Notes under the pieces: model-generated
What the model saw: only the letters and a program-made list of their open reading frames with translations
Databases searched by the model: none
Told to the model about the DNA's origin: nothing
Shown here: piece by piece, positions 13,114-31,401 of the stretch
Layout: every line of letters begins with the position of its first letter
Position numbering within the stretch: position 1 is the stretch's first letter
DNA from: Octopus vulgaris
Lineage: Eukaryota
DNA length: 64,000 nt
Reading direction: 5' to 3'
NCBI GenBank assembly: GCA_951406725.2
Contig: OX597835.1
Location: 18,910,001 to 18,974,000 of the forward strand
Position numbers and translations under genes: made by a program

Positions 13114-15727
13114 TCTATAGGCCGCCCCAAACACCCATACTGTGCTTTAAAGAATGCCTCAACAGCATTAAGTGCTTTATTCAACAGTGCCATTCTAGCA
13201 ACATACTCATGATGGGAGACTTCAATCTACCCTGTGTTGACTGGACTACAAACTGTTTGAAACCAAGCACTCCCGCCTCAACCGCTGACAAAGAAGCAGC
13301 AGAGTCACTTTTCGACTTTACGAATGAGTTTTTCTTGTCCCAACTTGTCCTTGCACCAACAAGACATCAGAACATTTTGGACCTAGTGTTTAGTAACCAC
13401 ACTAACACTATACATAACGTTACAGTGGAAAAAACCCTTCTTTCAGACCATGACATGGTTCTCTGTAACATGAAATTCCACCAGCCGAAAGCTAATCCTA
13501 GTGACCTTCCTCCAGCCCACCCATTTGACAACATGGATCTCCATAATGCCAACTGGGATGCAATCAGGAACGAGCTATCACATGTTGACTGGTCCTTTAC
13601 ACATACACACATCTCCCCAACCATAAAACATCTTGGCAGATCTTTGTAGACACCGTCACAGACATATGTGCAAAACACTCCCCACCAAGACCTGTGAACA
13701 AAAAGTGCAGAATCCCCCAAAACAGAAAAACCATTATCAGAAAAATAAAAAGAACAAACAAAAAAATTAACAAACTAAAGTACTGCCAACAGCAACACAC
13801 ACATTCGACGGCTATCGCACTGCTTGAATCCAAAAAATATAACCTCCAACAATGCATGAAGACCCTCATCAATAACCAAAGATCAGCTGAGGAGAAGTGG
13901 GCCATTGAAAAAATCAAACTCAACCCCAAAGTGTTCTTTTCATTTGCGAGGAAACGCAGGGTCACTGTCTCCACTGTAGGCCCTCTAATTGACGAAACTG
14001 GCACTCTCCAAGATAATGCCAAATCCATGGCCGAGATACTGCAGAAACAATACTGCTCTGTTTTCAGCAATCCTGATATGGCCGATCTGGGCTGTATCAG
14101 TGATGTCAACCCCCAACACACTATATCGGACATAACGTTTAGTGCCCCTGATGTCTTAGCGGCGATAAACGAAATAAAACACAATTCAGCAGTAGGCCCC
14201 GATAGGTTCCCTGCTTGTGTCCTGAAGGTGTGTCGACACCAACTTGCATCTCCCCTTGCTAATCTGTGGAGAAACTCACTGGATGCTGGCTATATTCCAA
14301 AAAACCTTCTGTCCCAGTCTGTTGTCCCAGTTTTCAAAAAGGGAAACAAGTCCCTTGCAGTGAATTACCGTCCGATCTCACTCACCTCTCATATCATCAA
14401 GGTATTTGAGAGGGTGGTGAGATCTCGAATAACCCAATTTCTGGAAAGCAACAGACGGCTGATATCCAACCAACATGGGTTCCGTAATGGAAGGGACTGC
14501 CTAACGCAGCTCCTGCATCACTTTGAGGACATTTTGAGAGCTTTGGGAGAGGGCTCCAACACCGATGTCATCTACCTTGATTTCAGTAAGGCCTTCGACA
14601 GAGTCGATCACAAGATCCTATTGAAAAAACTATCCAACATTGGTGTCTCTGGAAAGTTACTGAAATGGATCAAGTGTTTCCTGACAGACAGATCTCAACA
14701 TGTTGTAGTTGAAGAGGTAAAATCAAGCCCAGCCAAAGTCAGTAGTGGCGTTCCGCAAGGCACTGTGCTGGGCCCACTTCTTTTCATCATTTACATTAAT
14801 GACATTAATGACATCATCAAGCACAGCAACATAAAAATCTTTGCAGATGACTCCAAGCTACAGAAGGTCATAAATGAGGCGAGTGACCGGACATGCCTTC
14901 AGTCAGATCTACTGGCTGTTATCCAATGGGCAGAAAAAAACAATATGCTGCTGAACGAGGATAAATTTGAGCTAATCCACTTTGGAAAAGAGGATGCCCT
15001 GAAACTCCCATACTCCCTTCCTTCAGGTGAAATTCTCGCGGCGTCCAACAACATCAGAGACCTGGGAGTAATTGTGGACAACAACATAAGCTGGGCCACT
15101 CATATAAACACCAAAGTTGACATGGCCCGCAGAATGTGTTCCTGGATTCTCAGAACTTTCCAGTCGAGAGATATCCACACCATTATCCTTCTCTTCTCCA
15201 CTTTTGCCCGACCCCACCTTGAATACTGTTGTCCACTGTGGTCTCCCCACACAATACAAGGTATCATAAAAGTTGAAGCACCTCAAAGGGCAATCATAAA
15301 AAAGATAGATGGCATGACAGGCCTCGACTATTGGGTTCGACTAGAAAAGCTAAAACTCTATTCTCACCAACGTCGTCGTGAGCGCTACATCATCTGCATG
15401 ATGTGGAAAATATTCCATCAGCATTGCCCAAATGATGTTGGCATCACCTTTAAGGTACATCCAAGGCTTGGGCCCCGTGCCATCCGCCCAAAACAAAAAT
15501 CGCACTCTCATATCATAACAACAATACGGCACAATTATTTCACCTCAATTGGCCCCGCTCTCTTTAACATTACACCAAAACACATTAAAACAGAAACTGA
15601 CCCTATAGGGTTCAAGAAGTCTTTGGACAGATTCCTTCAAGAAATCCCGGATAAACCCCCTACACCCGGATATGTCTCTGTAAACAATAACTCTCTACTT
15701 GAGTGGGCCATAGTGCCCAAATTCTGA
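13112..15727 (+). pseudogene. LINE ORF2 (endonuclease-reverse transcriptase), frameshifted at ~13595-13630
   Basis: The frame of ORF 12945-13649 (real part from ~13112) switches to the frame of ORF 13694-15727 (SWQIFVDTVTDICAKHSP...). The 677-aa segment is uninterrupted. Confidence 0.9.
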
Positions 15728-27682: not shown

Positions 27683-27820
27683 GTATGTTTTCAGTGTTCC
27701 CCTATATGCGCGTGACTGCGCATGCGGGCACGTCTATCTGCAAATGACACGTCGTTACAAGTTCCTCCTCCGGCGAGCACTTGGATAAAATATCATGTAA
27801 TAATAGTTATCAATAATATA
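27683..27820 (+). repeat. Source copy of a 138-bp local duplication (second copy 28805-28942, inside a SINE)
   Basis: GTATGTTTTCAGTGTTCCCCTATATGCGCGTGACTGCG...TAATAATAGTTATCA is present at both sites. Confidence 0.92.
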
Positions 27821-28214
27821 TTTGCGACTTCCACGAGGGCAATTAAAATTTATAAATCACATTCATGGCTTGTAACAGCCTGTCTAGATTTATGCCTGAT
27901 ATATTGTTACACAGAATGTACATTATTGGTTTTGTTTATATATGCATGAATTTATCTAATAAATTATTAGCTAGAGTTTATCTCGAGGTTCATACATAAT
28001 CCATATATTTAATGTAACATTTATTAGAAACTATCATCTTTTCATCTGTTTTATGTTGATAATGCATTTGATTGCAATAATTGAACTCTATATCTTTTAT
28101 AGTTCTTCAAGCAATCTATTATGTTGTGATTGGTTATTGAATCATATTTTTGAACTCATACACAACACATAAAAAAAAAATAGACACAGCTACGTGAATG
28201 TACATATACATATA

Positions 28215-28343
<129 letters not shown>

Positions 28344-28696
28344 GTATATGTATATGTATGTAATCGTTAATCTGTCGGATAGCCTACCGAGTAAGGTATG
28401 ATACGATATGAGAAAATAAAATATGAGATAATTGTTTATTCACCCAGTTATAATGTGTGTACAGTTACAATATTTTATGAGATAATAGGTATATTGAGAA
28501 CTATAAGAAAATAAATTAACAAATGCAAAATTAGTAAAACAAATAGTGAAGAAAGGATATTTCACATTTATGAATACGTCTGGCAGATCGCAAAGAATTG
28601 TTGTTGTTGTTATTTCAATAGTTTATTCGTGATGATGTGAGCTTAGGACTATACCATTAGGACAGCGTGGGAGAAGAATTTCGGTAAGTCTATTTT

Positions 28697-29143
28697 TTTT
28701 ATTTAGCGCCCTTTTCAAGCCTAGCCAGGCTCATGAGCCTGGTTCCCCGTTCTCTGTGGCGTATGTGTTCCCCCCAGCTGGACGGGACGCCAATCCATCG
28801 CAGTGTATGTTTTCAGTGTTCCCCTATATGCGCGTGACTGCGAATGCGGGCACGTGTATCTGCAAATGACACATCGTTACACGTTCCTCCTCCGGCAAGC
28901 ACTTGGATAAAATATCATGTAATAATAGTTATCAGTAATATATAATATAATGAACAGGAAAAGAGAGTGAAAGTTGGGGCTAAAGTGTACAACAGTGGTC
29001 GCCAACCACCCCCCTGTAGGAGCTTCGTGGAGCTTTAGGTGTTTTTGCTCAATAAACGTACACAACGCCCGGTTTTGGAATCGAAATCGCGATCCTCCGA
29101 CCGCGAATCAGCTGCACTAACCACTGCGCCATTGCGCCTCCAC
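28697..29143 (-). mobile_element. tRNA-SINE (B-type head, CTGCGATGGATTGGCGTCCCGTCCAG body, A-rich tail), interrupted by the local duplicate
   Basis: Head GTGGAGGCGCAATGGCGCAGTGGTTAG at 29143; the tail resembles that of 29568-29846. Confidence 0.8.
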
Positions 29144-29331
29144 GAAGTTTCCGTACGCTCAATCGATGGAGAAGGGATCGGGCCGTCGCCGAGCGGTGGT
29201 TCACTCTCTGGTGCGAAACGCACGGTGCAGGTCGAGCGCCTTTGCGGGAGCCGACGCAGCCGATGCGCGACCCTTAGTCGAGAACAGTGTCGGTCAGGGA
29301 GTCTGACTGGGGCAGTACGCCTATCAAACGG
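29144..29331 (+). pseudogene. 28S rRNA fragment (retro-copied)
   Basis: GACCC...ACAGTGTCGGTCAGGGAGTCTGACTGGGGCAGTACGCCTATCAAACGG matches the conserved eukaryotic LSU sequence GACAGTGCCAGGTGGGGAGTTTGACTGGGGCGGTACACCTGTCAAACGG. It is preceded by a GC-rich expansion-segment-like stretch. Confidence 0.8.
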
Positions 29332-29567
29332 AAGTCTATTTTAGTCAATGACAAATAACAGAGTTTAGAAAAACGGATTATTGACTTTGTGTTTTACTTA
29401 AGAGATGTCTTAAGAGATGTCTTGAAACTGGGACTACATCATCCCAATATTAGGTTTGTTAAAGATGATGACACGCGTTGTTATGGAACCGTGGCTGCTG
29501 CATCTGGCTGCGCCTATACGTGTAAAGGTTGTCGCTTTGTGTTTTTTACTGAGGTTTTCTTTAACCA

Positions 29568-29846
29568 CGTGGAGGCACATGGCCTAGTGGTTAGAGCAGC
29601 GAACTCGCGGTCGAGGGATCGCGGGTTCGAATCTCAGGCCGTGTGATGTGTGTGTTTATGAGCGAAACACATAAGCTCCACGCAGCTACGACAGAAGGTA
29701 ATGGCGAACTTCTGCTGACTCTTTCGCCACAACTTTCTCTCACTTTTTCCTCCTGCATTTGCAGTTCACCTGCGACGGACCGGCGTCCCATTCAAGTGGG
29801 GAAACCGGCCCTATGAGCCAGGCATGGCTCGAGAAGGAACAAACAA
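29568..29846 (+). mobile_element. tRNA-SINE with 11-bp TSD
   Basis: A box TGGCCTAGTGG, B box GGTTCGAATC. TSD TTCTTTAACCA at 29557-29567 and 29847-29857. Confidence 0.9.
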
Positions 29847-31401
29847 TTCTTTAACCAGCTGTCCTAATATCGAATCTGCTTCATCTGCGTATGCTCTCTC
29901 ATGTATCGAAATATATCTAGGATTATATTATCGCAATTGTCCTGCGATAATGTTAAAGAACGGTTGCGAGGGATGTTGGTATTTCCAGCAGGTAGAATGA
30001 AATCTCTCCTTGCTTGTGCATTGTGCGGTATATCTAAGAATTGCTGCAATGATATGATATGAATATCTGGCCGTAGAAACCATGATAGCAATGGACGATA
30101 TATTTCTTATTATCCTATGTTTCTGATGCTGACGTTCGTTATTGGTAAGATTAACTAATGGTATGTAAATATGAGATGAAATTTGCTGTAACACAGAATT
30201 GCTCTTCTCTTTAGAGATTTATAACCGTATTGGTTTGGGAGGACTCTGATGATATATTCATGAAGAGCTACCTTTTAAGAACGAAAATGATGAAGGGTTT
30301 TAAGATTATACGTACAGTTTAGTTCGTAATAAACAAACGTATTCCGGTGTGTAGAGGTGTTCCTTTAGGCAATTTTCATTCTCTGAAATAAATTAGGACG
30401 CAAGTGTTTTGCTTGCTTGTATAGAATTTACATACACTGGACAATGTTACAATATATTTCAGAAGACGTGTTTTATCATAAAAGTGCGATGACTAAGAAT
30501 TCTTCTGTCTACTTTAGACTGTATATATACACACATACTTATATGCCTGTATTCTATTAGACTATGTAGATAATTTAAATTATTTCTTTCTAATTTTTAG
30601 TCTATTTTAAGTAAACCTACTTATAGAAAATTAGTTAATCAAACTTCTTAGTTCTTTTATATACTACTGATAAATTTTGATAATCCCAAACCTATAATAT
30701 AACGGTTTCATTATGAAAAATAACTCTATTTCCTTTCTTCTGACCTCTTACTGTATTCTCATAACTTGGCAATGTATTAATAGTAACATTAATAAATAAA
30801 GAAATAAATTAAATGACCTCCGTTCGAATATTGCACTAAATACGCTAAGATGTTTTCCTATAGAAACAACCTTTGACCTCCCCTTTTCACCTTCCCATTT
30901 CCTCTTTATATAGCAATTAGCAACAGTAGGTGGTCAAATTTAACATTCCTCCTTTAAGCTCTGTGGTTCTTGCAGATTTCTATACCGGTCAGCAGTTCGT
31001 CTCCACTATAAGACTGTCGCTACGCTTCACTGAACCTCCTACAACCCCCTCGGATTCTAACATAGCACAATGTATCCAAAATATCTTCACACAGCTTGAA
31101 TCACACTTTACTATGAACTATATATGGATAAATACATATTCTGTGAGTACGGTACCTCTCATCATATCTCCAGAAATCAAACTTTCTTCAATATGGATAA
31201 ACTCACATCCCCACTTTCATCTTCACTTTCTGGAAAACTAAGAGGTTTTGAAAAAAATTTTTAACTTTATATATGACTGTGCAAAACTAAAAGAACTTTT
31301 AGAAATCAATTTGTTAACTAAATCTCATTTTTATAGAACTTTCCATGATGTTTCACGAGTGTAACATTACCCCCTTTGATGTTTGGGGATCTCAGATGTT
31401 C

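What the first reader, a model, noticed from the sequence alone, without database searches (positions are those of the whole stretch)
28682..29342. SINE + inverted 28S rRNA chimera inside one TSD: signature of trans twin-priming
Seen: CGGTAAGTCTATTTT (28682-28696) and CGG-AAGTCTATTTT (29329-29342) bracket a minus-strand SINE (tail at the T-run) joined head-to-head to a plus-strand 28S fragment. Established: native 28S continues ...TCAAACGGTAACG at exactly this point, and twin priming gives inverted 5' segments. The target's CGGTAA therefore matches the rRNA. Inference: the first nick primed on the SINE A-tail while the second nick (...TTACCG-3') annealed to a different RNA, 28S, so one integration used two templates.
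Basis: partly seen in the sequence, partly recalled or inferred. Interest (0 to 1): 0.72.

Follow-up and report, generated by a model that had tools for sequence, protein, structure and literature searches.

The report
Backwards 28S piece inserted with SINE
A short jumping element (SINE) and a backwards-facing 188-base piece of ribosomal RNA sit inside one insertion footprint and are both missing at this spot in a related species, likely because a borrowed copying enzyme used two different RNAs at the two ends of one DNA cut, an accident already described in mammals.

Summary
A full-length tRNA-headed SINE (minus strand) and a 188-nt 28S piece sit head to head inside one duplication: 11 nt exact, 15 with one missing T. 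The genome's own 28S reads CGGTAA at the break, like the target; 5 of 1610 28S positions match that well. A related species has the empty site with one duplication copy (3 of 3 runs, 3 studies). Both parts are equally diverged (8.6% and 8.1%). One event is near certain. Priming of the second nick on 28S RNA (twin priming in trans) is the likely mechanism (about 0.7); the missing T and DNA-templated repair are the main doubts. The mechanism is not new: it was proposed for inverted snRNA-L1 and U5-SVA chimeras (PMC4476161) and antisense 5S/tRNA-L1 chimeras (PMC13174262). I found one more head-to-head SINE-28S case among 148 other rRNA pieces in this genome. The scan noted the same kind before, on other DNA of this genome and in other genomes. 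Verdict: new member of a known kind.

The parts
28682..28696 (+). Left copy of the target-site duplication; CGGTAA at its start equals the native 28S sequence at the break; the last four T overlap the SINE tail run
28697..29143 (-). Full-length tRNA-headed SINE of an abundant family, A-rich tail at the left; 26 of 301 sites (8.6%) differ from the majority of 13 subfamily copies
28805..28943 (+). 139-nt insert inside the SINE, copied from 1122 nt upstream; a later event, absent from the matching SINE contig of organism B
27683..27821 (+). Source of the 139-nt insert; the only other copy found in the genome (2 candidates, 2 scored)
29144..29331 (+). 188-nt 28S rRNA piece, head to head with the SINE; 15 of 186 sites (8.1%) differ from the genome's rDNA; its 5' end lies just after a GC-rich hairpin segment where other dispersed pieces also start
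29329..29342 (+). Right copy of the duplication: 11 nt exact, preceded by CGG shared with 28S, one T missing; followed by A, giving TTTT/A on the plus strand

Best explanation
The SINE and the inverted 28S piece lie in one duplication and likely entered in one event, in which a LINE reverse transcriptase likely copied the SINE RNA from the first nick and 28S rRNA from the second nick. Inferred steps: (1) the plus strand is nicked at TTTT/A and its T-rich end primes on the SINE's A-rich tail; copying runs off at the SINE's first base. (2) The minus strand is nicked about 15 nt away; its 3' end pairs with CGGUAA inside 28S rRNA and is extended 188 nt, stopping at the foot of a GC-rich hairpin segment. 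(3) The two cDNA ends are joined head to head with little shared sequence and the gaps are filled. (4) Later, one T of the right copy is lost before organisms A and B split, and a 139-nt local copy is inserted into the SINE in the A line. Shown: the anatomy, the sequence match, the empty site, equal divergence. Inferred: the nicks, the RNA template, the enzyme. The product is inert debris; no function is proposed.
For: One duplication brackets both parts, and its size fits the family: 9 of 13 subfamily copies gave 9-16 nt. Empty site in organism C: joint 28685 to 29332 with 11 shared letters in 3 of 3 runs from 3 studies; the contig has 143 letters between the two long pieces, 69 of them aligned and about 74 fitting the spot where organism B also has extra letters, which leaves no room for either part (my arithmetic). 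Organism B has contigs over both outer junctions. Divergence 26/301 against 15/186, Fisher p 0.87; non-CpG 8.2% each. The 6-nt match is reached by 5 of 1610 28S positions. The orientation is the one an RNA template forces. 7 of 16 other mapped pieces from the same search start within a 26-nt window around this 5' end, expected 1.5, p 0.004 for any window. 14 of 18 new pieces end in the hidden-break segment, so rRNA seems to be reverse-transcribed often in this genome. A second head-to-head SINE-28S case with a 9-nt exact duplication: L268. The SINE ends exactly at its first base.
Against: The T of CGGTAA is missing at the right junction in organisms A and B; perfect 6-nt priming should keep it, so a later loss must be assumed (the insert has 5 indels in about 490 nt). 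The inner junction shares only 1 nt for certain, 4 if a 4-nt deletion is allowed. The insert is 8.4% diverged although half the A-C flank distance is 4.6%; faster change in the GC-rich insert is seen between A and B (13/194 against 6/341, p 0.006) but may not explain all of it. The same locus shows a DNA-templated insert, so DNA capture does occur here. No listed contig of organism B spans the inner junction. The partner LINE was not identified. 5' ends at the hidden break were not significantly clustered for any window (p 0.41; fixed window p 0.013).
Confidence: 0.72

Rival explanations
1. One event, but the 28S piece was copied from rDNA (DNA): after the SINE was reverse-transcribed, the second DNA end invaded an rDNA copy by the 6-nt match, was extended by a repair polymerase and was then joined to the SINE cDNA.
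For: Explains one duplication, the empty site, equal age and the 6-nt match equally well. A DNA-templated 139-nt insert sits in the same SINE. Most of the 106 pieces first scanned show no exact duplication of 10 nt or more.
Against: A DNA donor has no reason to be mature rRNA in the sense an RNA would force. The 5' end falls in a cluster shared by 7 of 16 other pieces, and 14 of 18 pieces end in the segment where the RNA, not the DNA, is expected to be cut. rDNA is a small share of a 2.8-Gb genome while rRNA is most of cell RNA (general knowledge).
Confidence: 0.13
2. Ordinary twin priming on one chimeric RNA: a 28S fragment was first ligated in front of the SINE RNA, and the second nick primed inside the 28S part, inverting it.
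For: Same-direction 28S-SINE chimeras inside one duplication exist in this genome (L232, L348). RNA ligation is reported for U6/L1 (PMC6789731, search listing only).
Against: The first cDNA stops exactly at the SINE's first base, as expected for a free SINE RNA; on a ligated RNA it could stop anywhere. L268 also has a complete SINE head at the joint.
Confidence: 0.08
3. Two separate insertions at one site: a tailless 28S copy and a SINE that landed exactly at its edge.
For: Lone rRNA copies with their own duplication exist (L212, L183, L217, L226). SINEs are dense and do insert into rRNA copies (L072). The inner junction holds AAGT, four letters of the duplication.
Against: Only one pair of duplication copies; the AAGT is explained by native 28S with one substitution; equal divergence; organism C lacks both parts and organism B has both outer junctions.
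Confidence: 0.04

Closest known systems
Inverted snRNA-retroelement chimeras made by twin priming: U5-L1, U5-SVA, U1-L1, U2-L1, one U6-L1 (Doucet et al. 2015, PMC4476161; passages read)
   Same: Two RNAs in opposite orientation inside one duplication; the non-coding RNA is 3'-truncated; the nick consensus fits the retroelement's orientation; target and RNA are complementary at the junction. SVA shows that the partner can be non-autonomous.
   Different: Here the RNA is a piece of 28S, truncated at both ends, the partner is a full-length tRNA-headed SINE, the host is an invertebrate, and the enzyme is unidentified.
RNA/LINE-1 chimeras of the human genome, among them 18 28S/L1 (83% sense) and mostly antisense 5S/L1 and tRNA/L1, for which twin priming is proposed (Law and Burns 2026, PMC13174262; abstract, passages and section 12 read)
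   Same: 28S fragments co-inserted with a retroelement, dated by empty orthologous sites; antisense cases ascribed to twin priming.
   Different: The partner there is always L1; most 28S cases are sense. Its supplementary tables were not opened and may list antisense 28S junctions.
Tailless retropseudogenes (Noll et al. 2015, PMC5322556; passages read)
   Same: Internal priming by 2-18 nt of complementarity between target and RNA; includes 5'-truncated 28S copies.
   Different: Those are lone copies primed at the first nick; here the rRNA is the second template of a SINE insertion.
L1 twin priming in cis (Ostertag and Kazazian 2001, not read; as described in PMC2912911, passages)
   Same: Inverted 5' segment, microhomology at the outer junction.
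   Different: There both primers use the same RNA; here the two segments come from unrelated RNAs.

Membership tests
Two-RNA twin-priming chimera (Doucet 2015 group IV, inverted) | Both segments inside one target-site duplication | tested here: met
   11 nt exact, 15 with one gap; one copy at the empty site
Two-RNA twin-priming chimera (Doucet 2015 group IV, inverted) | Opposite transcriptional orientation, head to head | tested here: met
   SINE minus, 28S plus
Two-RNA twin-priming chimera (Doucet 2015 group IV, inverted) | Non-coding RNA 3'-truncated with complementarity to the target | tested here: met
   CGGTAA in target and native 28S; 5 of 1610 positions match as well. One T is missing in the product.
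Two-RNA twin-priming chimera (Doucet 2015 group IV, inverted) | First nick fits the retroelement's target preference | tested here: met
   In SINE orientation the duplication starts T|AAAA; 7 of the 9 family copies with a 9-16 nt duplication start with A after T
Two-RNA twin-priming chimera (Doucet 2015 group IV, inverted) | Both segments arrived together | tested here: met
   Both absent in organism C, both outer junctions present in organism B; equal divergence
Two-RNA twin-priming chimera (Doucet 2015 group IV, inverted) | Second template is RNA, copied by the element's reverse transcriptase | tested here: inconclusive
   Indirect support only: orientation and clustering of ends
Two-RNA twin-priming chimera (Doucet 2015 group IV, inverted) | Made by L1 machinery | not tested
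   Partner LINE of this SINE not identified
Composite 28S-SINE family (amplifying element) | Many copies of the same SINE-28S joint | tested here: not met
   0 further copies among 40 scored of 980 candidates and among 40 scored of 82
Template-switch or ligation chimera (U6/L1 type) | Both segments in the same orientation | tested here: not met
   Opposite orientation
Named SINE superfamily (MetaSINE, CORE-SINE) | Central domain similar to the published consensus | not tested
   PMC4824008 passages read; the consensus is in a figure that is not held; the resemblance is recalled only

The most novel reading that the evidence does not exclude
Capture of an unrelated RNA at the second nick is a general, recurrent property of a non-L1 LINE machinery in an invertebrate, working when neither RNA encodes the enzyme. 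Head-to-head SINE-rRNA inserts would then be a countable fossil record of second-strand priming and of rRNA breaks and stall sites in the germ line, here with at least two cases seen directly and a third noted earlier by the scan.
Probability: 0.35. Interest if true: 0.5.

Novelty: new member of a known kind. Interest (0 to 1): 0.3.

Why it matters
How the second strand and the 5' junction of a non-LTR insertion are made is still unsettled. This locus is a clean natural example, with an empty orthologous site and a 6-nt target-RNA match, that the second DNA end can likely prime on a bystander RNA outside mammals and with a SINE as the first template. It extends a mammalian model to an invertebrate. 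It does not add a mechanism, and the product has no sign of function.

Tried and rejected
Rfam on the window and ARAGORN found neither the 28S piece nor a tRNA; the weak miRNA hit at 29575-29646 is the head of the neighbouring SINE and was rejected. An amplifying 28S-SINE family was rejected. Three raw-read runs laid 0 reads and gave no test, so polymorphism within organism A was not examined; 16 of the 24 listed runs were never laid. The first rRNA survey (106 distinct pieces after dropping 11 duplicate or array loci of 117) gave no second head-to-head SINE case; the second (43 pieces after dropping 24 duplicates and 1 array locus) gave L268. The survey covers five 28S windows and one 18S window besides the finding's own, top 40 hits each, so it gives no genome-wide rate. 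The mismatch-tolerant duplication scan missed L268's 9-nt copy, which was found by eye. L303 (reversed Penelope-like end plus 28S, 81% identity) has no clear duplication and was not counted. L227, L341 and L233 first looked head to head or tail to tail but are 28S pieces lying inside a SINE. Five pieces followed by a reversed SINE tail were not pursued; one (L072) is a SINE inserted into an rRNA copy. A fold-back origin for the five letters at the inner junction was considered; two substitutions and a 2-nt insertion explain them as well. Paper searches: 'twin priming' with 'two different RNA' gave 0; octopus, SINE, rRNA, chimeric retrogene gave 2 SINE papers, one read in passages, neither title on this; searches showed no invertebrate SINE-rRNA inverted chimera in their listings. 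The library lacks most subscription papers.

Full report
Observation. An 11-nt exact repeat lies at 28686-28696 and 29332-29342. It is preceded by CGGT on the left and CGG on the right. Between the copies lie a minus-strand SINE (28697-29143) and a GC-rich piece (29144-29331). The piece is 91% identical to a tandem rDNA array and other rDNA copies of this 2.8-Gb genome, and Rfam calls such a copy LSU rRNA. The native 28S reads TCAAACGGTAACGC at the break. Sliding the target along 1610 positions of 28S, with an offset of one allowed, only 5 give a run of 6 or more.

The SINE. It belongs to an abundant tRNA-headed family (5293 candidates, 40 scored) and begins at the family's first base. Of 13 copies with the same tail, 9 gave duplications of 9-16 nt, and 7 of these 9 start with A after T. 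Read in SINE orientation the finding's duplication starts T|AAAA, so the SINE side looks like an ordinary insertion of this family. The joint with 28S was not found again among 40 scored of 980 candidates.

One event. Contigs of organism C join 28685 to 29332 with 11 letters shared, in 3 of 3 runs from 3 studies: the empty site with one duplication copy. The tool marks the letters between as not known, but the contig holds only 143 letters between its two long pieces, 69 aligned and about 74 that fit a nearby spot where organism B also has extra letters, so neither part fits there. Table 3 lists no difference at CGGT, though 41 rows are hidden. Organism B (2 runs, one sample) has contigs that run from the left flank into the SINE tail and from the 28S piece into the right flank, without gaps, so it has the filled site and also lacks the T. 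No listed contig of B spans the inner junction. Three raw-read runs laid nothing. The SINE differs from its subfamily majority at 26 of 301 sites and the 28S piece from rDNA at 15 of 186 (p 0.87); non-CpG sites give 8.2% for both. The majority was built from copies chosen for likeness to this one, which may bias it. The insert is more diverged (8.4%) than half the A-C flank distance (4.6%); between A and B the 28S end also changes faster than the left flank. I take this as faster change in GC-rich sequence, but it is not fully explained.

RNA or DNA template. The orientation is the one an RNA template forces: the second nick's 3' end must be complementary to sense rRNA. I collected 149 distinct dispersed rRNA pieces with both ends in view. 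Of 16 other mapped pieces from the search that found this one, 7 start in a 26-nt window around its 5' end, just after a GC-rich multi-hairpin segment; 1.5 were expected (p 0.004 for any window). Of 18 new pieces, 14 end 40-63 nt before the conserved marker that flanks the protostome hidden break (marker from PMC6925239, passages, which does not mention cephalopods). That segment varies among rDNA copies, but these pieces do not resume in 28S. 5' ends at the break were not significantly clustered for a free window. So rRNA seems to be reverse-transcribed often here, which favours an RNA template without proving it for this locus.

Recurrence. Excluding the finding, 1 of 148 pieces has a reversed SINE head at its 5' end: L268, a 116-nt, 99% identical 28S piece ending at the break segment, joined to a complete SINE of another family, with a 9-nt exact duplication and both flanks from one host repeat. 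It has no empty-site test. Same-direction chimeras inside one duplication were more common: L232, L348, L227, L214. Lone rRNA copies with duplications also occur. Earlier notes of the scan report another head-to-head SINE-28S case in this genome and similar ones in two other genomes; I did not check those loci.

Mechanism. Most likely the plus-strand nick primed on the SINE tail and ran off at its first base, the minus-strand nick paired with CGGUAA inside 28S and was extended 188 nt, and the two cDNA ends were joined head to head (0.72). The missing T is the weak point: perfect pairing should keep it. With 5 indels in about 490 nt of insert, a later loss is plausible, and it must predate the A-B split. 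The inner junction shares one letter for certain. Rivals are DNA-templated capture from rDNA (0.13), twin priming on a ligated 28S-SINE RNA (0.08) and two separate insertions (0.04).

A later event. The SINE carries 139 nt copied from 1122 nt upstream, the only two copies found in the genome. A contig of organism B that matches this SINE copy closely joins 28806 to 28948 without it, and B's one contig over that stretch carries the source's letters at the four distinguishing sites listed. It is likely a repair-templated insertion in the A line and does not bear on the first event, except to show that DNA capture happens at this locus.

Comparison with what is known. Doucet et al. 2015 (PMC4476161, passages) describe inverted, 3'-truncated U5, U1, U2 and U6 copies with L1 or SVA inside one duplication, with target complementarity, and propose this model. 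Law and Burns 2026 (PMC13174262) list 18 28S/L1 chimeras, 83% sense, and propose twin priming for antisense 5S and tRNA cases; its supplements were not opened. The locus meets five defining features of that class; the RNA template is inconclusive and the enzyme untested. My searches showed no invertebrate SINE-rRNA case in their listings, but the library is incomplete.

Verdict. Real, well supported as one insertion, likely two-RNA twin priming, a new member of a known kind. Interest 0.3.

Noticed in passing
window 28805-28943 and 27683-27821: 139-nt unique local sequence copied into the SINE from 1122 nt upstream, absent from the matching SINE contig in organism B; most of its 6 differences seem to lie on the inserted copy, many for so young an event.
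   Followed up: partly
L268 (G000:C2, about 10907930-10908480): Second head-to-head chimera: reversed SINE with a tandem partial copy, joined at its first base to a young 116-nt 28S piece that ends at the hidden-break segment; 9-nt exact duplication inside a decayed repeat that looks like a DNA transposon (recalled).
   Followed up: partly
L232, L348, L227, L214: Same-direction chimeras inside one duplication: 28S piece plus a full SINE (L232; L348 with an A/AG linker), plus a 36-nt tail-like stretch (L227), or plus a Penelope-like 3' end (L214; label recalled). L099 and L347 look alike but without a clear duplication.
   Followed up: partly
L215: Possible three-part insert: 28S piece, an inverted SINE half and a sense SINE, between imperfect 19-nt repeats.
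   Followed up: no
L264, L266-L271, L303, L304, L306-L310: 14 dispersed 28S pieces end in the hidden-break segment, which suggests that the break exists in this animal and that the free end is a favoured template.
   Followed up: partly
L212, L215, L233; L183, L226, L228: Two other recurring 3' ends of dispersed 28S pieces (three pieces each within 3 nt).
   Followed up: no
L242-L259: The hidden-break segment differs strongly between rDNA copies of this genome: at least four variants.
   Followed up: no
L263: 28S piece inside a SINE with about 11 nt shared at its 3' joint; possibly a jump from SINE to rRNA and back.
   Followed up: no
window 29569-29846: A second, related SINE on the plus strand with its own 11-nt duplication (29557-29567, 29847-29857); an independent insertion.
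   Followed up: partly
window 13589-15727: 712-aa open frame with a reverse transcriptase domain (Pfam RVT_1, E 1e-30), a LINE copy; not tested as the SINE's partner.
   Followed up: partly
window 29397-29420: 12-nt tandem duplication where organisms B and C have about 55 more letters: a deletion in this genome's line.
   Followed up: no
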